Shown in pieces: positions 1,038 to 17,548 of a stretch of 20,000 nucleotides of DNA; positions within the stretch are counted from its first letter, which is position 1, and the number at the start of each line of letters is the position of its first letter. The notes under the pieces are model-generated. The model was not told where the DNA came from and made no database searches. It was given only the letters and a program-made list of their open reading frames with translations. The stretch is from an uncultured virus (IMG/VR IMGVR_UViG_3300005617_000177) (Duplodnaviria; Heunggongvirae; Uroviricota; Caudoviricetes): the IMG/VR virus record IMGVR_UViG_3300005617_000177; one strand, given 5' to 3'. The position numbers and the translations under genes were made by a program.

Positions 1038-1045
1038 GTTTCCAA

Positions 1046-1074
1046 CGCCCCGCTACCAGGATAGCAGCGGGGCG
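1046..1074 (-). other. GC-rich intergenic hairpin (transcript 3'-end or processing element; no U-tract)
   Basis: Minus strand CGCCCCGCUGCUA-UCC-UGGUAGCGGGGCG: 13-bp stem with two G-U pairs, just downstream of the 1091 stop. Confidence 0.7.
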
Positions 1075-1090
1075 GTTTGAGTCAGATTAC

Positions 1091-2284
1091 TCAAAAAGGA
1101 ATTTCTTCGTCGTCTGCCGCACTCACCGTTGCCGCCATTGCTGCTATTGGCGCAGGTGGTTGCCGAGATTCAGATCCCCGGGTTGTTCGAGATTGGGCTG
1201 CGCTGGCTGGAGCCGCTTGCTGCTTTAGATTATCGGCTTCCAGTTTCAGGTGGTCGATCAATATGCTCGCCCCTGCTTGCGTCAGGTTAAAGATCGTTGA
1301 ATCATCGGTGCCGCCTTTGAGTTGCCCGGCCCCGCGCAACACGGCCAATTCAACATCGGGATCCTGATCGACCTTCTCGGCCAACTCTTTGATGCGTTCC
1401 ATCTGTGCATCGGTTGCGAGTTTATCAGCATCTTCTGTGAAGTGTCCGGCTTCGGCGGCTTTGCTGCTGGACAATTCCTTGACCATGCCGCCATACGTAT
1501 CGATCCATTCTACGATCGTTTTGATTCGTTCGCTCCCGTCGTTCTTCTTTGGGATGTAGAGCTTCTTCAACTCATCAAGGTTGTCCGCAAACATCTTGAG
1601 AGTCGATACGCCCGTTCGACCGTCCTTTGTTGTTCGCAGGCCGCGTTCTTCCAGATCTTGAACAGGACACGCCCACGAAACGTCAGGAGATTTCCCAACC
1701 AGCATCGGTCTATGCTTCACCGGGAGCAGAAATTGATTATAGGAAAGCGACTTTGCAGTCGGATTCTTCCTCTTGTGTTCGGCGGTCGCAGCGCCGACAA
1801 CATAGCGCAGAAAGTTCCGAACGTGAGCACACATCCGATATCCATTCGACTTGCCGCTGTACTTGATCCTGAATGGCTTCGATGGCGACCAGAACTGCCA
1901 GATACCGGCTATGAGATAGAACGCAACCTTTCCCGATTGCTCGCTTGTCCACGCGACCGGACCCCGATCATCGTGGTCGAAGGCGACCACGGTCAGATGG
2001 TAGTTCGGTAGAATCCATCCTTCTTGTCGCTTGAATCCCCCCGGCGAGTCTTCATCCAGATGATCTATGACGAGTCTCTTTGCGTACTTCTCGTCAATTA
2101 TCGCATCATCGGGAACCTGACTGTCCGGAATGAAAAGTCCTCCGTTTTCGCCTTTGGAGTCCTTGTCGTTGTGAATGTAAATGATCGGCAGTTCCAGTCT
2201 GGCTTCTACAGCCGCTTTGTCGTGCCGACCTTCGTCTCCGAAGTAGCTATCAACGCCAGAGGCGTCATCTCTAGGTTCGTCCAT
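1091..2284 (-). CDS. Putative ssDNA-binding / single-strand annealing protein
   Basis: Low-complexity linker then SSB-type acidic tail DDEEIPF; ATDAQMERIKEL...LTQAGASILIDHL resembles the AT.KQ...LT..EAS..ID.L module of phage Rad52/ERF C-termini. N-terminal domain not recognised. Confidence 0.6.
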   Translation of the reverse strand: MDEPRDDASGVDSYFGDEGRHDKAAVEARLELPIIYIHNDKDSKGENGGLFIPDSQVPDDAIIDEKYAKRLVIDHLDEDSPGGFKRQEGWILPNYHLTVVAFDHDDRGPVAWTSEQSGKVAFYLIAGIWQFWSPSKPFRIKYSGKSNGYRMCAHVRNFLRYVVGAATAEHKRKNPTAKSLSYNQFLLPVKHRPMLVGKSPDVSWACPVQDLEERGLRTTKDGRTGVSTLKMFADNLDELKKLYIPKKNDGSERIKTIVEWIDTYGGMVKELSSSKAAEAGHFTEDADKLATDAQMERIKELAEKVDQDPDVELAVLRGAGQLKGGTDDSTIFNLTQAGASILIDHLKLEADNLKQQAAPASAAQSRTTRGSESRQPPAPIAAMAATVSAADDEEIPF

Positions 2285-2297
2285 GGGTTTGTCTACC

Positions 2298-2331
2298 TTT
2301 CGTCACAATTTTCGTCACCAAATTTTGTCAC
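2298..2331 (-). repeat. Three tandem GTGACRAAA copies in the 5' leader of the SSB-like gene
   Basis: Minus strand GTGACAAAA-tttg-GTGACGAAA-att-GTGACGAAA; copies at 2323-2331, 2310-2318 and 2298-2306. Confidence 0.8.
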
Positions 2332-2342
2332 TAATAGATCCC

Positions 2343-2371
2343 ATCTTGAACCTACTACAGTCCGCTGTCAA
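2343..2371 (-). promoter_or_regulatory. Sigma70-type promoter for the SSB-like gene
   Basis: Perfect TTGACA (2371-2366), 17-nt spacer, imperfect -10 CAAGAT (2348-2343), intergenic. Confidence 0.55.
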
Positions 2372-2386
2372 TTCTTTTAATCCTGC

Positions 2387-2647
2387 TCACTACGAAGCAG
2401 TTAGTAATCGCAGCTATACACTTCGCCAGTCATGAAGTTCCAAAAGATACAGAACGATCTGTTCTTTAACTCGCTGCGTTCATCGACTTCATACTCACAA
2501 TACAACTCGACATCGAATGGACTATTGCCACACTCGGCGTGCGCTTTCCGACTCGGACTTCCAAACACCAACATCAACACTGCTGCAATCAGCACCAGCT
2601 TCCTCAAGGTATTCTTCATGAGTTTCCTTTCTCTTCACTACGAAGCA
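2387..2647. repeat. 13-bp direct repeat TCACTACGAAGCA flanking the 72-aa gene
   Basis: Identical copies at 2387-2399 and 2635-2647. Confidence 0.75.
2401..2619 (-). CDS. Small secreted Cys-containing protein (72 aa)
   Basis: Basic N-terminus, hydrophobic stretch LVLIAAVLMLVFG, AHA cleavage site; four Cys in mature part; ATGA overlap and AGGA RBS. Confidence 0.75.
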   Translation of the reverse strand: MKNTLRKLVLIAAVLMLVFGSPSRKAHAECGNSPFDVELYCEYEVDERSELKNRSFCIFWNFMTGEVYSCDY

Positions 2648-3542: not shown

Positions 3543-4151
3543 CTATAGCGGTTGAGTGGTGACTATGCGCTGTCCGAGCCATCGGACTTCTGTGATGCCG
3601 AAACAGGCCCCTCGAGATTCAGCATCGAAGGCGAAGACTTTATCTCCCGACCCCCAATTACTGACTACCTCCCGGTTCCCGTCTCTATTAACCTTGATCC
3701 TGAAATTGCTGAAGTGAAGCTGCGCTCCAATCAAGCCCATAGTAGCAAACAACAAAGCGTGATAAGAAGCACCACAGACTGTACACCGAAGCCAAGTATC
3801 CAGCTTCGCTGGTTGGTCCGGATCCCAATCCAGTACTCCCTCACAGTCGATGTGTGGACCATCTATGAGACTCGGATTGTATTCAGGGTTATCAAAGTCG
3901 GGGGCCCCTTCCCGTGTCAGGGCGAGAGACCCCTCCACTCGCAGTGACATGCGAGTTACCGGATATTTGCGGTGCCTCAAAAAGCAGGGAATGTACCGTC
4001 GCTGATTCGCTTTCGGACATCGCGCATTTCGACACACCACAAAGAAACTTTTGTCAGTACGAACAAACAGAGAGAGTTCACCACAACCATCGCAAAGCCT
4101 GCCGAGGTCGAATGGAACAGTGTGTTCTGTTTTTAATAGCGGCGCGAACAT
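3543..4151 (-). CDS. Hypothetical Zn-ribbon-containing protein (202 aa)
   Basis: CDGC, CRNARC and CTVC motifs; has its own upstream promoter. Confidence 0.75.
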   Translation of the reverse strand: MFAPLLKTEHTVPFDLGRLCDGCGELSLFVRTDKSFFVVCRNARCPKANQRRYIPCFLRHRKYPVTRMSLRVEGSLALTREGAPDFDNPEYNPSLIDGPHIDCEGVLDWDPDQPAKLDTWLRCTVCGASYHALLFATMGLIGAQLHFSNFRIKVNRDGNREVVSNWGSGDKVFAFDAESRGACFGITEVRWLGQRIVTTQPL

Positions 4152-4165
4152 GTTTTACGAGTGAG

Positions 4166-4194
4166 ACAATAAATCAAACCTTGATCGGAGTCAA
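4166..4194 (-). promoter_or_regulatory. Sigma70-type promoter
   Basis: TTGACT (4194-4189), 17-nt spacer, TATTGT (4171-4166), 14 nt upstream of ATG 4151. Confidence 0.65.
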
Positions 4195-4547
4195 GGGAAA
4201 TCTAAAGGATGGATATAAAAAGGCATCTTCCGTGCTCTGGCCTTTCTGATGATGTCGTATGTTCCGTCAGACGTCAGCTTAGGGTGCGGAATTGCGATAA
4301 GCGCTTCACCGGCCTTAATCATTTCCGCGTTGCGAATTGGGCCGGCGCGCTTGCCGTATTTAGTCCAGTCGGCGGGATGTGGTTCGACAGGGATACCTCT
4401 CGATTCAGCCCATTCTCTTGCGGTTAAATCGATTCCCCAATACTCACCTTCAATGAGTAAAGTGATCTGAAAGCCAGAGGCCCGAACAGCATCATCAACG
4501 ATCTGTTCGTCCGCAATGAATCTCGAGCCTGCGATTATGACTTTGAT
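4191..4547 (-). CDS. SLOG-superfamily (DUF2493/YspA-like) protein, 118 aa, predicted ATC start
   Basis: Hand translation: (M)KVIIAGSRFIADEQIVDDAVRASGFQITLLIEGEYWGIDLTAREWAESRGIPVEPHPADWTKYGKRAGPIRNAEMIKAGEALIAIPHPKLTSDGTYDIIRKARARKMPFYIHPLDFP; signature IIAGSR, PADW..YGK.AGPIRN.EM and S.GT..I. Absent from the ORF track. Confidence 0.9.
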   Translation of the reverse strand: MKVIIAGSRFIADEQIVDDAVRASGFQITLLIEGEYWGIDLTAREWAESRGIPVEPHPADWTKYGKRAGPIRNAEMIKAGEALIAIPHPKLTSDGTYDIIRKARARKMPFYIHPLDFP

Positions 4548-4804
4548 TTCGATTCCTCGTCGGGTCTGAGTTGTCTGTGCTGCTTGAATATCAAGTTGGC
4601 CTGCTCAGTTCTTAACGAAGCTGAGATCATAAAGCCTTTACCACAAAGTCGGCATAGATATTCAGGCGCTTTGAACTCCCAGGATGGGCGTCCACCTACT
4701 CTGCGATTCGGATCTTCGTGATCCTTGCGGTACAAATCTCGTTCAAGCGTTTCCGTTCCGCACCAGGGACACCACGTTGCCCCGGTGTATGTTTTGTTGC
4801 CCAT
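4535..4804 (-). CDS. Zn-ribbon hypothetical protein (89 aa)
   Basis: CPWC...CRLC; TAATG coupling. Confidence 0.75.
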   Translation of the reverse strand: MGNKTYTGATWCPWCGTETLERDLYRKDHEDPNRRVGGRPSWEFKAPEYLCRLCGKGFMISASLRTEQANLIFKQHRQLRPDEESKSKS

Positions 4805-5235
4805 TAGCAGGTAAAAGCTGGTCCTGTTCCGAAAGCAGTCGCAAGTGCGAGAGCCTTTTCTTCGGCTTGGCTCTTAGCTTCCTCCAGCGTCTCTGCTTGA
4901 TGTGTGTCGCCTACGAATGTGAGATCAGCGATATAGAATCCCAAGTCGATACAGTACTCCCATCCCACTTCGGCTTCTTGTACTCTTAAAAAGATCGTGA
5001 CTTTCGACTCGCCAAACGTAGTCCCCGATACAGGATCATACGCGTGAACAACCTGTCCGATATTTATCTCGGCGGCATGAAATGGAGTATCGCCCAGGGA
5101 GCCTCCAACATATACCGATTTTGCTTCTATGCCAGCATTAGCCCACGCCTGTTCGATTCCTTCTTTTATTGCTTCTGCACTATATTCCGGTGATGTCGGA
5201 TCAACGTAATGCCAATCTATAGCAATTGTATTCAA
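4804..5235 (-). CDS. Hypothetical acidic protein (143 aa)
   Basis: TTG start with AGGAG RBS; fills the gap on the coding strand. Confidence 0.75.
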   Translation of the reverse strand: MNTIAIDWHYVDPTSPEYSAEAIKEGIEQAWANAGIEAKSVYVGGSLGDTPFHAAEINIGQVVHAYDPVSGTTFGESKVTIFLRVQEAEVGWEYCIDLGFYIADLTFVGDTHQAETLEEAKSQAEEKALALATAFGTGPAFTC

Positions 5236-5253
5236 GTGGCTCCTGTGTATTCA

Positions 5254-5440
5254 ATCTTGGACGGCCCGATGCCCGATTCTCCGCGGGCGCCTCCCGCTCC
5301 GAGGATCGCTATCATACCCCGGTATTATCGACGTTGCCACGGGTGTGCTAATTTCAGCCGGGTTCGAAGTGGCTGGACCGAAGTCTTAATCGTGTCTACC
5401 AAGGGTGGTTAGCCCTCTGTATCTACACCACGTCCAAGAT
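5254..5440 (-). ncRNA. Putative novel structured non-coding RNA (~187 nt)
   Basis: Perfect 10-bp terminal stem AUCUUGGACG/CGUCCAAGAU enclosing several internal helices, a C(UUCG)G tetraloop and a GCAA tetraloop; fills the only long intergenic gap; G-U pairs and tetraloops favour the minus strand. Confidence 0.7.
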
Positions 5441-5448
5441 CGAGACCG

Positions 5449-5931
5449 TTACTTCGAGGTTTTGTACTTCGTGCCCCAGACCGGTTCATTGGAGAAATTA
5501 ACAATGACGGCGATCTGTGGTCCTGCGGTCGGAACCTGGGGTGCGTTGTCTCTTATGTGAGAGGCAAGATAATGCAACCCAATGTCCGCAATGGCCAGCG
5601 AGGCCAGTATCGTCGTTTTCTGGCTGGCGGTCAGTTGATTGATGTCTTCATTCACAATACTAGAGAATGTAGGAATCAACTGAGAGAGCAGGGCTACTGC
5701 TTCGGTGGTCTGGCTTGCGGCGACCGCATCCTTCAGCTTTGTGGCTATCGTAATAGCCTGATCGAACTTCACTCCCGATCTCGGTAGAAGCTGATTGATC
5801 AAGGGGCGCGCGGCCGTGAGTGCTGTCAGAACATCATTGGCATTGCTAACAAGACTCTGTTTCGAACACGTCGCGGCGACGGTGCTCAGAAGAAGAACTG
5901 CGCTGAGAACTATTGAGGTACTTCTTTTCAT
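5449..5931 (-). CDS. Putative lipoprotein (160 aa)
   Basis: MKR, hydrophobic h-region, lipobox-like VAAT-C at residue 22; amphipathic helical body; GGGAG RBS. Confidence 0.75.
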   Translation of the reverse strand: MKRSTSIVLSAVLLLSTVAATCSKQSLVSNANDVLTALTAARPLINQLLPRSGVKFDQAITIATKLKDAVAASQTTEAVALLSQLIPTFSSIVNEDINQLTASQKTTILASLAIADIGLHYLASHIRDNAPQVPTAGPQIAVIVNFSNEPVWGTKYKTSK

Positions 5932-5940
5932 ATATCTCCC

Positions 5941-6996
5941 TTAAAGTTCGCTTACTCGAACTCTCTTTCCCTGCATTTTCTTTATGGTGGCGGTATCGGT
6001 CCCGATGTCTCGAGAAATCAGAATGCTTCCGCCCATCTTCACTTTGTCCAGAACACCAGTAAAAGACGCCTTATCCGGTGTGGGAGGTTCGGGCTTTGGC
6101 GGCTCCGGCTTTGGTGGTTCTGGTTTCGGCGGCTCCGGCTTTGGTGGCTCCGGCTGCGGTACTACTTTCTCGGCGGTGAGAACTCGCCCTTCCCAGAATG
6201 GACCATTCTGCATCTGGAAGTATTCGAAGGGGACTGCAAAGTCGCCGGGTCGCATCTGGAATCCGAACTGTGCGGCATCAGCAGACCAGCCGGTACTCCA
6301 GGAGTTGGCACATAATACGAACCCAGGAACTACAGCCCATGCCAGAAACGCGTGGCCTGCGGATGTGAACTGTCGAATACCAGCAGGTAGTTTCCCACCT
6401 TTGGGATTGAACCAGGCATCCGGCCAGGCGCTTGCCAGGGCAACAGCTTTATTTTGATTGATCGCATTCCAGATGTGTTCAAGGAATGTTCCACCCGAAG
6501 GATAGAAAGGCAAATGGGAGAACTCATAGTCTGCTCCCTCATCCCATTTGTAATTATCATACGCGTAGGTTGCGCTATCGACATAGCCGGTCTCAGCCGT
6601 CAATAACGGTGATCCCAATAGAAGCTGATCGAGATTATCAGCTAGATAGGATCCACTATCTTGCGGAAACCAGCCCTGCTTGATTCTGGATTGTGCGTAG
6701 AGCGGCCCGGGATTGATTGTCTTGGCCACTCGACCGGGATTCGCAGCGTTGTATACCAGTTCGACACCTGACTTTGAAGTACAAGAAGCGCAGCTTCCGA
6801 TGCCACCTTGATAGAAGATGGCAGGGCGCGGATCGAAGTCGGGACGCACCATAGATGTTGCTATGTTCAGATCGGCGATAGCCGGTGGAGGGGCGAAGAG
6901 GGACCATTTGTATTTGTCTTCAGATTCCGTCCTGGGGCGAACATTCGCTCCCAGACAAAGAACTAAGCCGTCCTGATTCCTCTTGTCTAGTTCCAT
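5941..6996 (-). CDS. Papain-like cysteine peptidase (family C1A) with Pro-rich linker and small C-terminal domain
   Basis: YQGGIGSCAS (oxyanion Gln and catalytic Cys), DSGSY, AGHAF (His), ANSWSTGW (Asn), GDFAVPFEY. Confidence 0.88.
   Translation of the reverse strand: MELDKRNQDGLVLCLGANVRPRTESEDKYKWSLFAPPPAIADLNIATSMVRPDFDPRPAIFYQGGIGSCASCTSKSGVELVYNAANPGRVAKTINPGPLYAQSRIKQGWFPQDSGSYLADNLDQLLLGSPLLTAETGYVDSATYAYDNYKWDEGADYEFSHLPFYPSGGTFLEHIWNAINQNKAVALASAWPDAWFNPKGGKLPAGIRQFTSAGHAFLAWAVVPGFVLCANSWSTGWSADAAQFGFQMRPGDFAVPFEYFQMQNGPFWEGRVLTAEKVVPQPEPPKPEPPKPEPPKPEPPKPEPPTPDKASFTGVLDKVKMGGSILISRDIGTDTATIKKMQGKRVRVSEL
6083..6157 (-). repeat. 15-bp coding tandem repeat, about five (K/Q)PEPP units
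   Basis: PQPEPPKPEPPKPEPPKPEPPKPEPPTP with synonymous codon variation between units; boundaries approximate. Confidence 0.85.
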
Positions 6997-10229: not shown

Positions 10230-10682
10230 CTATTGTCTCAATTCTTTTCGTACTTCCATCAATAATTTGCCAAGCATGTTTTCGCCGTAGCCGTGAGCAG
10301 GACAGATGCAGACGCCAAAGAAGACGTCGTGCCAGGTGTTGCCTTCGATCAGTTCTCGCTCGCCGGTCTGTTGCAGACGGAGCCAGAAGTCGCCCTGACT
10401 AAACTTCTTCATAAGCAACTCCTTCATTATCCCTAGCTTGATCTCATCCCACCCCGCCCTGAGTGTAACCGCATGTCGGCCCATCCATTTGGCCAGCCCT
10501 GGCCCTGCGGCCGTTCGGATCTTTTCTCGCTGTTTAGGGTTCAGCGTCTTTGCAGCCTGAAATGCAGCCTCAAGTGTTGGATAGATGGCCCCTTCATACT
10601 CGATTTCGCAAGGCTCGAAGTTGGATAAAAATTTGTATTCACCCTTGAAGCGATCAATCGGCGGAAGAGTATCGAAAAGCAT
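10230..10682 (-). CDS. NADAR family protein (YbiA / T4 gp30.3-like ADP-ribosylhydrolase or N-glycosidase)
   Basis: FLSNF, YPTLEAAFQAAK, AK..GR, LR.GWD, KF.Q, LIEGNTWHD.FFG, GENMLGKLLMEVR; start set at ATG 10682 (TAATG overlap). Confidence 0.93.
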   Translation of the reverse strand: MLFDTLPPIDRFKGEYKFLSNFEPCEIEYEGAIYPTLEAAFQAAKTLNPKQREKIRTAAGPGLAKWMGRHAVTLRAGWDEIKLGIMKELLMKKFSQGDFWLRLQQTGERELIEGNTWHDVFFGVCICPAHGYGENMLGKLLMEVRKELRQ

Positions 10683-11059
10683 TATTTGATTTCCTTCATC
10701 CAGATCCAAGGTGTTCGTTGCACTATAAGACCGGCGCCAGCGAGCATGCTTTCCATCCGCGCGCTCCCTACCGGATTCAGAGAATGAATAAAGAAGGTGG
10801 TCTTCTTGAACAGTTCTGTGTGCTCGATAATCCAGGCCACAAGCGCTGTGCCAGAAGCATCCTTGTTGTCCTTCTCATAGTGTTCCTCAGCGAGATCGTG
10901 ATCGAGACAGATCAAATCGTACGGACCTTTCAACTCGGTTGCTAAAAGAGCCGCCATTCCGGACGCGAAAGAAAATGCGAACTCCAGTTCATGAGTCCAG
11001 TTGCGCTCTCTGAAATCTTTGGCCCTGTGTTCGCCGTCATCAACGAATAGGATTTTCAT
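10682..11059 (-). CDS. Stand-alone cyclic-phosphate-processing receiver domain (cREC)
   Basis: KILFVDD..R, DLICLDHDL, SG..LV.WI, IHSLNPVG..RM: motifs of this divergent receiver family rather than CheY. Confidence 0.85.
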   Translation of the reverse strand: MKILFVDDGEHRAKDFRERNWTHELEFAFSFASGMAALLATELKGPYDLICLDHDLAEEHYEKDNKDASGTALVAWIIEHTELFKKTTFFIHSLNPVGSARMESMLAGAGLIVQRTPWIWMKEIK

Positions 11060-12427: not shown

Positions 12428-12631
12428 TTACACCTTCTTTGTTTTGTATTTTTTCTTGATGTGTTCTTTCAGGTAGATTCCCTTGCTTGGGGCGGCCATT
12501 AGTTCTCTGAAGACTCGTTCGGGAACATCGTAGTATTCGTAGATCGAGCCGTTCAGGAAGGAGATGGTGAGAACTGAGTCCTCGTAGCCAATCGCTTCTA
12601 TGTGAGACGATTCAACAGGAGTAAGTTTCAT
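12428..12631 (-). CDS. KTSC domain protein
   Basis: PVESSHIEAIGY...L.I.F.NG.IYEYYDVP...F..LM.APSKG.Y...HIK. Confidence 0.95.
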   Translation of the reverse strand: MKLTPVESSHIEAIGYEDSVLTISFLNGSIYEYYDVPERVFRELMAAPSKGIYLKEHIKKKYKTKKV

Positions 12632-16165: not shown

Positions 16166-16747
16166 TTACCAATGTCCTGTAAGATCCGGCACCGCTGCCG
16201 CGAAGCCGCGCTGCTCGAATTCTCCTGGTGTATAGAATGGACCACCGAGTTTGGATGTGCGATCCCAAAGTATGGCGGTCGCCGCGGTTGCCAGATTCAA
16301 GCAATGCTTCGTTGGAATTACGACGAAGCGGTGACAGTGCCGAATGAGAGATGTTGGTATGCTTCCGTCTTCAGGTCCGAAGACGTACACCGCATTCTCC
16401 GGATGTTCGAACTGATGGAGAAGCTCTGCCTGTGGGCGCACTTCGATTGCGATAGGGATGACGTCAGGACCGAACGCATCGAAAGGATAATCGTAATTGA
16501 TGATGTCCACTTCTTTGTATCCCTTCATCCGTTCTTCTCGAGGAAGCCTCTTGGATACTTCCAGGTCTTCCGTGATGCGATTGCCGGTGAACCATACCTG
16601 TTTGAAGCCAAAACAAGACGCCAATCTTACTACCATTCCGGCGTTATGTGCATGTTTTGGATTCACTAAGATAATGGAGGGAGTGACTCCCTTGGGAGGC
16701 TGATACTGAATGCGCTCGACCATTTGATCTTTAATCGGTCTTCTCAT
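16166..16747 (-). CDS. SpoU/TrmH-family (SPOUT) RNA 2'-O-methyltransferase
   Basis: Motif 1 NPKHAHNAGMVVRLASCFG, motif 2 YVFGPEDGSI, motif 3 VIPTKHCLNLATA..ILW; start ATG 16747 with AAGGA RBS. Confidence 0.9.
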   Translation of the reverse strand: MRRPIKDQMVERIQYQPPKGVTPSIILVNPKHAHNAGMVVRLASCFGFKQVWFTGNRITEDLEVSKRLPREERMKGYKEVDIINYDYPFDAFGPDVIPIAIEVRPQAELLHQFEHPENAVYVFGPEDGSIPTSLIRHCHRFVVIPTKHCLNLATAATAILWDRTSKLGGPFYTPGEFEQRGFAAAVPDLTGHW

Positions 16748-17144
16748 TGCTTGTCCTTCTGGCTGCGCGAACTTCTTCCGCACTCCATATTTCCGTGCTT
16801 TGCATATCTGGTGCTATACCGCACTTCGGACATTGGTATCCTCCGTGGAGTCCCACCAGCGGAGTGCCGTGACAATCTCCACCATCAGCATGTACTAATA
16901 CTCCGTTGTGCTTGCTTACTATCGGTTGCTCGGGCTGACTCTTATTCTCTTTCTTTGCCCAGAATGTTTCATTCTGGGGCGGAGTCTCAGTAGTGAACAG
17001 AGTGCGCGGCCGAAGTTGGACAATAACTTCGTAGTCTTCTTCTCCGTGCGAAATGAAGTATCTGATACAGCTTGAATGGACTAACGCCATCTGCTCAACA
17101 GCCACATTCAACAAAGAATGTAGCGCTTCACTCTGTTTCCCCAT
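16731..17144 (-). CDS. Hypothetical protein with C-terminal Zn-ribbon (137 aa)
   Basis: H...CH...CPKC; start uncertain (17144 or 17165). Confidence 0.65.
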   Translation of the reverse strand: MGKQSEALHSLLNVAVEQMALVHSSCIRYFISHGEEDYEVIVQLRPRTLFTTETPPQNETFWAKKENKSQPEQPIVSKHNGVLVHADGGDCHGTPLVGLHGGYQCPKCGIAPDMQSTEIWSAEEVRAARRTSNEKTD

Positions 17145-17394
17145 TGTTAAATCTCCTGATAGCATTATCGAGATCAGCCAGAATCACATCCAATTCTTTT
17201 GCGGCGCCTGGATCTTCCAGTTCATGTTTGACCTTATTCAGTTGCAGTCGCTTAGTGATAACTTTTATATGCTCACAGAATTCCTGCTCTGCCGCAGTCC
17301 GAGGCATATCAAGAAGCACGTCATCTCGGGTGTCTCGATCTTGGAGCACCCTTGATAAGAAGACACCCCAAAGATTACTCAGTCTATTCTTCAT
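17128..17394 (-). CDS. Hypothetical helical protein (88 aa)
   Basis: ATG 17394 overlaps the end of the upstream 54-aa ORF. Confidence 0.65.
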   Translation of the reverse strand: MKNRLSNLWGVFLSRVLQDRDTRDDVLLDMPRTAAEQEFCEHIKVITKRLQLNKVKHELEDPGAAKELDVILADLDNAIRRFNNGETE

Positions 17395-17548
17395 CTTCGT
17401 CTTCCTCTGGCATACCGCCGATCTCACAGTAATCGTCTTGAGGATCATCTACCATGCGTAGACACAAACCGCCATCGTCTACGCCAACGTAGGCCCCGGC
17501 AGGTAGACTTTCCAACCAATTGATAATCTCTTCTTTTGGTTTAGCCAT
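17384..17548 (-). CDS. Small very acidic protein (54 aa)
   Basis: MAKPKEEIINWLESLPAGAYVGVDDGGLCLRMVDDPQDDYCEIGGMPEEDEDEE; perfect AGGAGG RBS; below the ORF-track cutoff. Confidence 0.8.
   Translation of the reverse strand: MAKPKEEIINWLESLPAGAYVGVDDGGLCLRMVDDPQDDYCEIGGMPEEDEDEE

What the first reader, a model, noticed from the sequence alone, without database searches (positions are those of the whole stretch)
5254..5440. Candidate new phage-encoded structured RNA (~187 nt, multi-branch, possible pseudoknot)
Seen: this is the only ~200-nt gap in a gene-packed window, and a perfect 10-bp terminal stem (AUCUUGGACG 5440-5431 / CGUCCAAGAU 5263-5254) brackets almost all of it. Minus-strand interior, 5'->3': a long arm GUGU-aga-UAC-a-GAGGG-(CUAACCA)-CCCUU-g-GUA-g-ACAC; GAC(UUCG)GUC; CAGCC-(ACUUCGAACCC)-GGCUG with a T-loop-like UUCGAA; an (A)CCCG...CGGG(GU) arm carrying a G(GCAA)C tetraloop; and a three-way junction closed by CGAU/AUCG holding CCUC/GAGG and GCCCG-(CGGAGAAU)-CGGGC. 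Loop (G)CUAA is complementary to the UUAG(C) linker, a possible pseudoknot. Established: C(UUCG)G and GNRA loops and end-pairing are typical of stable ncRNAs. I cannot match it to tRNA, tmRNA, RNase P, 6S, raiA, HEARO or the small ribozymes. Inference: a stand-alone RNA (decoy, scaffold or ribozyme), or a leader controlling the 5235 gene, whose AGGAG lies just 3' of the closing stem. The nearby SpoU methyltransferase and KTSC protein are possible partners.
Basis: partly seen in the sequence, partly recalled or inferred. Interest (0 to 1): 0.85.

Follow-up and report, generated by a model that had tools for sequence, protein, structure and literature searches.

The report
Unproven end-paired RNA in phage gap
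A 213-base gap between two genes of an unknown soil phage is bracketed by a perfect 10-base inverted repeat and turns up in RNA libraries, so it may encode a new small stable RNA, but its proposed fold is unproven.

Summary
The sequence features are real. The gap 5236-5448 is the only gap over 135 nt in the window. A perfect 10-bp inverted repeat (5254-5263 / 5431-5440; 13 bp with one mismatch) brackets it. Only the terminal stem exceeds chance: 16 of 20000 shuffles of the gap gave such a bracketing repeat. Without that stem the interior folds no better than shuffles (z +0.31 minus strand, -1.04 plus strand). There is no Rfam, tRNA or tmRNA match, and no peptide family match in any frame.

Two metatranscriptome runs each hold one perfect contig lying wholly inside the element (5260-5421 and 5271-5427) and none on the flanking genes. 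However, those runs were selected with this same stretch, and contigs show neither strand nor ends.

No homologue could be retrieved. Covariation therefore remains untested.

My best reading, at about 0.4, is a stable non-coding RNA closed by the terminal stem and of no known family. The rivals are an ordinary promoter/leader region, an invertible DNA switch, or chance. The suggested SpoU and KTSC partners lie 7-11 kb away and have no support.

The parts
5236..5448 (.). Intergenic gap of 213 nt, GC 0.57, the longest gap in the window
   Evidence: no family match for any stop-to-stop peptide
5431..5443 (-). 5' arm of the terminal stem (10 perfect bp over 5431-5440; 13 nt with one mismatch)
   Evidence: (pair probabilities 0.55-1.0)
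5251..5263 (-). 3' arm of the terminal stem (perfect part 5254-5263)
5392..5428 (-). Hairpin A (GUGU/ACAC, UAC/GUA, GAGGG/CCCUU, loop CUAACCA). The core is well supported in the ensemble (0.64-0.91); the outer GUGU/ACAC is at about 0.3
5376..5385 (-). Small hairpin GAC(UUCG)GUC, pair probability 0.26
   Evidence: CTTCGG is common in the window
5355..5375 (-). Hairpin C, CAGCC(ACUUCGAACCC)GGCUG, pair probability about 0.6. The 11-nt loop is not a canonical T-arm
5267..5343 (-). The pairs exist but have probability 0.00-0.04, and the MFE uses other pairings
5260..5427 (.). Union of the two RNA-library contigs (X9 5260-5421, 162 nt; X10 5271-5427, 157 nt; no mismatches). The strand is not known
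5233..5244 (-). AGGAG (5244-5240) and TTG start (5235-5233) of the downstream 143-aa gene
4804..5235 (-). Downstream gene, 143 aa, acidic, near-orphan (one relative at 36% identity)
5449..5931 (-). Upstream gene, 160 aa, lipoprotein-like signal with invariant Cys22. It has relatives at 99, 81, 63, 59 and 56% identity whose DNA could not be reached

Best explanation
The gap encodes a non-coding RNA domain of about 190 nt whose two ends pair: 10 perfect bp, or 13 with one mismatch. It is transcribed, and it persists in environmental RNA at a higher level than the two flanking genes.

Most likely it is part of the minus-strand multi-gene transcript, since all genes run that way and I found no convincing promoter or intrinsic terminator of its own. 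It would survive as a stable piece because the terminal stem and two or three internal hairpins (A and C, perhaps B) protect it. It would then act in trans, most plausibly as a protein-binding scaffold or decoy rather than a base-pairing regulator.

Shown: the inverted repeat is beyond chance, no coding signal is present, no known family matches, and RNA-library contigs lie on it. Inferred: that the repeat acts as an RNA stem, the strand, the ends, the release from a longer transcript, and any function.
For: The terminal repeat bracketing the gap appeared in 16 of 20000 shuffles and is unique at that span in the 20 kb. The stem pairs have probability 0.94-1.0 for the central eight pairs, and the stem extends to 13 bp in the 244-nt fold. 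The gap has GC 0.57, against about 0.50 in its flanks and 0.38-0.51 in the other gaps over 55 nt. No peptide signal was found. The upstream protein ends where its five relatives end, so this is not an intron in a split gene. RNA runs X9 and X10, from two studies, each hold one whole contig with no mismatches confined to 5260-5427 and none on the flanking ORFs. Their only other perfect contigs lie at 1444-2550 and 3635-3808. DNA run X3 has a contig (4704-5396) that runs on across the lower border.
Against: The interior folds no better than shuffles on either strand. The whole element on the minus strand has z -1.08, and it is unremarkable among all 187-nt windows.

The RNA runs were found with the stretch 5000-5700, so their cover of that stretch is by selection. 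Given that selection, I estimate the chance that both roughly 160-nt contigs fall inside the 213-nt gap at about 0.01, by my own arithmetic. Depth is only about 3. Contigs show neither strand nor true ends. The two studies may belong to one campaign, and DNA in the RNA libraries is not excluded.

No promoter or terminator of its own was found: no terminator-like site, and the promoter-like hexamers lie inside the element. No homologue was found, so there is no covariation evidence.
Confidence: 0.4

Rival explanations
1. This is an ordinary regulatory spacer: a promoter plus 5' untranslated leader for the 143-aa gene. The end-pairing either stabilises the mRNA 5' end or has no role.
For: Three of the four sigma-70-like hits in 4700-6100 lie on the minus strand in or at the gap (5351-5324, 5340-5311, 5254-5225), against 1.3 expected. 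AGGAG and the TTG start follow the stem by 9 nt. The interior is not unusually structured.
Against: The RNA contigs cover 5318-5427, upstream of the predicted starts, and neither run has a contig on the 430-nt ORF. The Shine-Dalgarno sequence is not sequestered by the element in the 244-nt fold, so no expression platform is apparent. A GC of 0.57 is atypical for a promoter spacer.
Confidence: 0.25
2. The feature acts at DNA level. The inverted repeats would flank an invertible promoter segment (inverton), or be the ends of a small inserted element or paired protein-binding sites.
For: The only feature beyond chance is the inverted repeat itself. It flanks 167 bp just upstream of a gene, with promoter-like hexamers inside. 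Invertons are described as promoters with inverted repeats at both ends (abstract starts in the search listing only: 10.1101/2023.10.25.564076 and PMC11602134).
Against: There is no strand-changing joint at 5254 or 5440 in the 4 of 4 runs laid, though these are contigs, which drop rare forms. None of the 32 proteins scanned is a recombinase. The flanks show no target-site duplication (read). There is no second copy in the window, nor in the phage or plasmid collections. The two IMG/VR hits that share the termini are unrelated inside. RNA confined to the interior is not what an outward-firing promoter would give.
Confidence: 0.1
3. Nothing functional is here. This is a spacer with a chance inverted repeat and a chance pile-up of a few RNA-library fragments.
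For: Eight repeats of this size occur within 400 nt across the window, mostly inside genes. The fold statistics are at background. RNA depth is about 3, in runs selected with this very stretch.
Against: A repeat that brackets the one long gap appeared in only 16 of 20000 shuffles. Both RNA runs place their single contig from the 701-nt query inside the gap. The gap is GC-rich.
Confidence: 0.2

Closest known systems
Bacterial and phage Y RNAs (YrlA/Yrn1)
   Same: These are non-coding RNAs of comparable size (size recalled) whose 5' and 3' ends pair in a stem that closes a multi-stem module. Some are phage-encoded and processed from a precursor (PMC4201824: abstract and passages read).
   Different: No Rfam match at E up to 10. 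No TROVE/Ro60 protein among the 32 proteins of the window. No GGUCCGA-like motif in the 5' strand. No D- or T-arm: ARAGORN finds none, and hairpin C has an 11-nt loop.
phi29 prohead RNA (pRNA)
   Same: As recalled, not from a call: about 174 nt, paired ends, a three-way junction, and complementary loops used for RNA-RNA contacts.
   Different: No Rfam match. The contig is at least 61 kb, not a small phi29-like genome. The three-way junction proposed here is disfavoured in the ensemble.
6S RNA
   Same: As recalled: about 184 nt, abundant, stable, with paired ends, acting as a protein decoy.
   Different: 6S is a rod with a central bubble, whereas this element is predicted to be multi-branched. 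No Rfam match.
Retron msr-msd non-coding RNA
   Same: As recalled: inverted repeats of about 10-13 nt (a1/a2) bracket roughly 170 nt of RNA gene.
   Different: No reverse transcriptase in the window. The downstream ORF is a 143-aa near-orphan.
Invertible promoters (invertons, fimS-like switches)
   Same: Short inverted repeats flank an intergenic segment of about 170 bp upstream of a gene, with promoter-like hexamers inside (search-listing abstracts).
   Different: No recombinase in the window. No reads or contigs in the flipped orientation. The RNA lies on the interior only.
Operon-embedded processed phage RNAs (P1 c4, P4 CI, T4 stable RNAs C and D)
   Same: As recalled: small stable RNAs cut out of multi-gene phage transcripts, lacking their own terminator.
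   Different: Those are shorter. c4 and CI have known complementary targets nearby. Here the only long complementarity elsewhere is a 14-nt match to 17332-17345, and that motif is not enriched.

Membership tests
Any Rfam 15 family | Covariance-model score at or above the family's gathering score | tested here: not met
   No hit at gathering thresholds in the 20 kb. In E-value mode the only hits were malK-II (15.8 bits against 52.9) and MAT2A_D (13.6 against 32).
tRNA / tmRNA / tRNA-like | Cloverleaf or tmRNA detected by ARAGORN | tested here: not met
   No genes found. None at the 80% threshold with or without introns. Only junk calls appear at 60%.
Y RNA / YrlA | Encoded next to a Ro60 (TROVE) orthologue | tested here: not met
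   None of the 32 window proteins hits TROVE. The rest of the contig was not available.
Y RNA / YrlA | GGUCCGA-like motif in the 5' strand of the terminal stem, plus D- and T-arm-like stem-loops (PMC4201824, passages) | tested here: not met
   The 5' strand reads AUCUUGGACG. Hairpin C has a 5-bp stem with an 11-nt loop. No Rfam hit.
Retron msr-msd | Inverted repeats a1/a2 bracketing the RNA gene | tested here: met
   The defining feature is recalled, not taken from a call.
Retron msr-msd | Reverse transcriptase gene in the same operon | tested here: not met
   None of the 32 proteins has an RT domain. The downstream ORF is 143 aa.
Inverton | Inverted repeats flanking an intergenic segment that holds a promoter | tested here: inconclusive
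   The repeats are present. The promoter evidence is only consensus-like hexamers.
Inverton | Both orientations present in sequencing data | tested here: inconclusive
   No strand-changing joint in the 4 of 4 runs laid, but all are contigs at depth 2-5.
Inverton | Site-specific recombinase | tested here: not met
   None among the 32 proteins of the window. The rest of the contig was not seen.
Riboswitch-like cis leader | Aptamer closed by a P1 stem just upstream of the regulated gene | tested here: met
   The stem ends 9 nt before AGGAG.
Riboswitch-like cis leader | Expression platform: alternative pairing that hides the Shine-Dalgarno sequence, or a terminator | tested here: not met
   In the 244-nt fold the Shine-Dalgarno region pairs only in a local 4-bp hairpin with the start codon. 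No terminator-like site was found.
Miniature inverted-repeat element | Terminal inverted repeats with a target-site duplication and several copies | tested here: not met
   The repeats are present. The flanks are not duplicated. No other copy exists in the window or in the phage and plasmid collections. The IMG/VR termini hits are unrelated.
Structured RNA in general | Base pairs kept by compensatory changes in homologues | not testable with these tools
   No homologous DNA could be retrieved.

The most novel reading that the evidence does not exclude
The element is the first seen member of a new class of phage-encoded, end-paired stable RNA of about 190 nt. It would be found in a small clade of rhizosphere phages next to a conserved lipoprotein gene, would accumulate well above its neighbouring mRNAs, and would act as a protein-binding decoy or scaffold during infection or lysogeny.
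Probability: 0.3. Interest if true: 0.6.

Novelty: new variant of a known kind. Interest (0 to 1): 0.4.

Why it matters
Phage genomes carry few recognised non-coding RNAs beyond tRNAs. Those that are understood (pRNA, Y RNAs, c4/CI, 6S mimics) each revealed a distinct mechanism. A new abundant RNA from an uncultured soil phage, with no Rfam relative and visible in field metatranscriptomes, would be a worthwhile target for structure and partner discovery.

As it stands, it is a single sequence with one statistically supported stem and low-depth RNA evidence. Its value therefore depends on recovering the relatives' DNA and on stranded read mapping.

Tried and rejected
Searches for homologues, all empty.
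- blastn of the gap against phages and plasmids.
- Both flanking proteins and two neighbours against IMG/VR. The single relative locus, L001 (43% identity to the 220-aa protein), has no match to the element by blastn or nhmmer, nor in its whole record.
- The alignment of the 160-aa family against genome, metagenome and viral collections.
- tblastn of P0004 against phages and plasmids.

DNA patterns.
- An exact 21-mer found nothing.
- Loop-based patterns gave L002 and L003, and nothing in genomes. In both hits only the pattern itself aligns.
- A termini-based pattern gave L004 and L005, both unrelated in the interior.

Other dead ends.
- No whole genome is held for this window.
- The earlier-findings index returned nothing.
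- The idea of a spurious ORF carrying relatives failed: the 67-aa plus-strand ORF has no database relative.
- The strand could not be decided. The plus-minus energy difference is ordinary (z -0.75), and each strand's MFE has 5 G-U pairs.
- The 143-aa protein model was too poor to search with (pLDDT 50.7). PADLOC gave no hit for six neighbours.
- GGA motifs (CsrA-sponge idea): I counted four by eye, about the number chance would give, so I dropped the idea.
- The third copy of the stem motif at 17332-17345 is not enriched: 5 matches against 2.7 expected, and 33 of 200 shuffles reached 5.
- No RNA contig lies on the flanking ORFs. This comes from low-depth contigs of runs chosen with this stretch, so a part without cover proves little.

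Full report
**Setting.** The window is a gene-packed stretch with every plausible gene on the minus strand. It carries phage replication and recombination genes: an SbcC-like ATPase, an SNF2 helicase and RusA. It also carries accessory genes: NADAR, cREC_REC, KTSC and SpoU methylase. It has almost no close relatives.
- There were no hits in the GenBank phage set for the element or for the 351-aa neighbour.
- IMG/VR gave one distant relative for the 220-aa protein, at 43% identity.
- Sequencing runs that hold the stretch are rhizosphere metagenomes.
- No whole genome is held for the window.

**The observation.** The gap 5236-5448 (213 nt) separates a 160-aa lipoprotein-like gene (5449-5931) from a 143-aa gene that starts at TTG 5235 behind AGGAG. 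It is the longest gap in the window. The others are 32-135 nt, and the apparent 380-nt gap at 4152-4534 is a YAcAr/SLOG gene without a listed start codon.

The perfect 10-bp inverted repeat 5254-5263 / 5431-5440 is real and extends to 13 nt with one mismatch.

**What exceeds chance.**
- Across the window, eight inverted repeats of 10-14 nt lie within 400 nt of each other, mostly inside genes. This is the number expected from the window's size by my own arithmetic, so the stem's length alone means little.
- Its placement does mean something. Only 310 of 20000 dinucleotide shuffles of the gap held any perfect 10-bp inverted repeat.
- Only 16 of 20000 held one spanning 170 nt or more. The real pair is also the only one with a span of 170-213 in the 20 kb.

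**The interior does not exceed chance.**
- The 187-nt element folds with z -1.08 on the minus strand (27 of 200 shuffles do as well) and z -2.56 on the plus strand (0 of 200).
- With the terminal arms removed, the interior gives z +0.31 (121 of 200) on minus and -1.04 (31 of 200) on plus.
- Against all 187-nt windows of the 20 kb, after regression on GC, it ranks 455 of 1982 (minus) and 137 of 1982 (plus).
- In the ensemble, the terminal stem (0.55-1.0), the core of hairpin A (0.64-0.91) and hairpin C (about 0.6) hold. The cUUCGg hairpin is at 0.26. Arm D and the three-way junction are at 0.00-0.04.
- CTTCGG is common in the window, 18 sites against 12 expected.
- The plus-minus difference in stability is ordinary (z -0.75), and each strand's MFE has 5 G-U pairs, so the strand is not decided.

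**What the element is not.**
- Rfam 15 gives nothing at gathering thresholds. In permissive mode it gives only two or one meaningless low scores.
- ARAGORN finds no tRNA or tmRNA, even at 80% thresholds or with introns allowed.
- No stop-to-stop peptide of the gap matches Pfam or PHROGs convincingly.
- The 67-aa plus-strand ORF has no relative among 5.8 billion proteins.
- It is not an intron. The upstream protein ends exactly where its five relatives end.
- There is no reverse transcriptase, Ro60/TROVE protein or recombinase among the 32 proteins scanned.
- There is no second copy in the window and no target-site duplication at its ends.

**Expression.** One call found runs holding 5000-5700. 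Ten hold part of it, two of them metatranscriptomes, each with 13% of the sampled words. I laid the two RNA runs and two DNA runs on the whole window.
- Each RNA run has exactly one contig in the query stretch: X9 at 5260-5421 (162 nt, depth 3.3) and X10 at 5271-5427 (157 nt, depth 3.6).
- Both contigs are whole, have no mismatches, and lie inside the inverted repeats.
- The only other perfect RNA contigs lie at 1444-2550 (both runs) and 3635-3808 (X9). Neither flanking ORF is covered.
- DNA run X3 has a contig (4704-5396) that runs on across the lower border.

Caveats apply to this evidence.
- The runs were chosen because they hold words of this stretch, so cover somewhere in 5000-5700 is by construction.
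- What is not by construction is that both contigs fall inside the 213-nt gap. By my own arithmetic that is roughly 0.1 each, or 0.01 jointly.
- Depth is low. Contigs of about 150-175 nt also occur in isolation inside genes. Ends and strand cannot be read from contigs.
- The two studies may be one campaign, and DNA in the libraries is not excluded.

I take this as moderate evidence that the element accumulates as RNA above its neighbours. It is only weak evidence for discrete ends.

**Homologues.** None could be obtained, and I used every collection scan.
- The 143-aa gene is a near-orphan: only itself in one search, and one 36% relative in the exhaustive search.
- The 160-aa gene has relatives at 99, 81, 63, 59 and 56% identity. 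Their contigs are in none of the collections I could read.
- The pattern scans gave four loci, L002-L005. In each, only the pattern itself aligns.
- Covariation, the decisive test, therefore remains undone.

**Mechanism.** The best-supported feature is the terminal pairing, and the RNA evidence lies between its arms. I therefore favour, at about 0.4, a stable non-coding RNA closed by that stem.
- I take it to sit within the minus-strand multi-gene transcript. There is no terminator-like site, and I saw no convincing promoter upstream on reading.
- It would persist after the mRNA decays and act in trans, most plausibly by binding a protein.
- The internal architecture beyond hairpins A and C is open, and the proposed pseudoknot is untested.

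The rivals are these.
- A plain promoter-plus-leader region (0.25). Three promoter-like hits lie in or at the gap, but the RNA lies upstream of those starts, and the Shine-Dalgarno sequence is not sequestered.
- A DNA-level inverted-repeat element such as an inverton (0.1). The geometry fits, but there is no recombinase and no flipped form.
- Chance (0.2).

**Comparison with known systems.**
- It works most like the end-paired stable RNAs: Y RNAs, 6S and pRNA. It meets none of their testable defining features, as set out in the membership table.
- For Y RNAs I read the abstract and passages of PMC4201824.
- For invertons I saw only search listings and abstract starts.
- pRNA, 6S, retron a1/a2, P1 c4, P4 CI and the T4 stable RNAs are recalled from memory.

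The suggested partners have no support. SpoU (16166-16783) and KTSC (12428-12631) lie 7-11 kb away.

**Verdict.** This is a real and statistically odd terminal inverted repeat around the window's one long, GC-rich, non-coding gap, with modest RNA-library support. The elaborate multi-branch fold is not supported by thermodynamics and cannot be tested by covariation. It is a reasonable candidate for a new phage RNA but is not yet established.

Noticed in passing
window 4191-4547 (-): A YAcAr/SLOG-family gene (Pfam E 8e-12) reads through the apparent gap 4152-4534. It has no ATG, GTG or TTG start at its 5' end and overlaps the end of ORF 4535-4804. This suggests an unusual start codon or translational coupling.
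   Followed up: partly
window 2285-2400 (-): The 116-nt gap upstream of the 397-aa gene holds a TTGACA hexamer and three tandem GTGAC(A/G)AAA repeats, which look like operator sites. This gene region (1444-2550) is the main part of the window covered by the RNA-library contigs.
   Followed up: no
window 1038-1090 (-): A GC-rich hairpin (CGCCCCGCTGC...GTAGCGGGGCG) lies right after the 397-aa gene. It looks like a terminator but has no clear T run.
   Followed up: no
window 1091-2284 (-): The 397-aa protein has no Pfam or PHROG hit. Its nearest clusters in the protein atlas are DUF5895/Pam3_Gp34, with RecT/Sak-like annealing proteins among the weaker structural matches (scores 0.83 or less, TM under 0.5). 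This is a lead only.
   Followed up: partly
window 10230-11059 (-): A NADAR-domain gene and a cREC_REC (cyclic-phosphate-processing receiver) gene sit next to each other and overlap slightly. This pairing has an RNA-repair or ADP-ribose flavour.
   Followed up: no
window 6074-6160: A 15-nt periodic repeat encodes Gly-Ser-Gly-Phe-Gly units inside the 351-aa protein. Contigs from other organisms match it partially in the runs laid.
   Followed up: no
window 5433-5446 and 17332-17345: A 14-nt perfect inverted match links the element's 5' stem arm plus flank to a site inside ORF 17128-17448. About 0.02 such matches are expected by my own arithmetic, but the motif is not enriched in the window.
   Followed up: partly
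window 5449-5931 (-) and P0002-P0006: The 160-aa protein family keeps an N-terminal signal with an invariant A-x-T-C-S-K lipobox-like motif (Cys22). It looks like a phage lipoprotein, perhaps for superinfection exclusion.
   Followed up: partly
L005:480-715: This IMG/VR contig carries several copies, in both orientations, of a roughly 25-nt motif (GATCTTTGCTTTCGTCCAAGATC-like). It is a repeat element unrelated to the window apart from the shared 10-mer.
   Followed up: no
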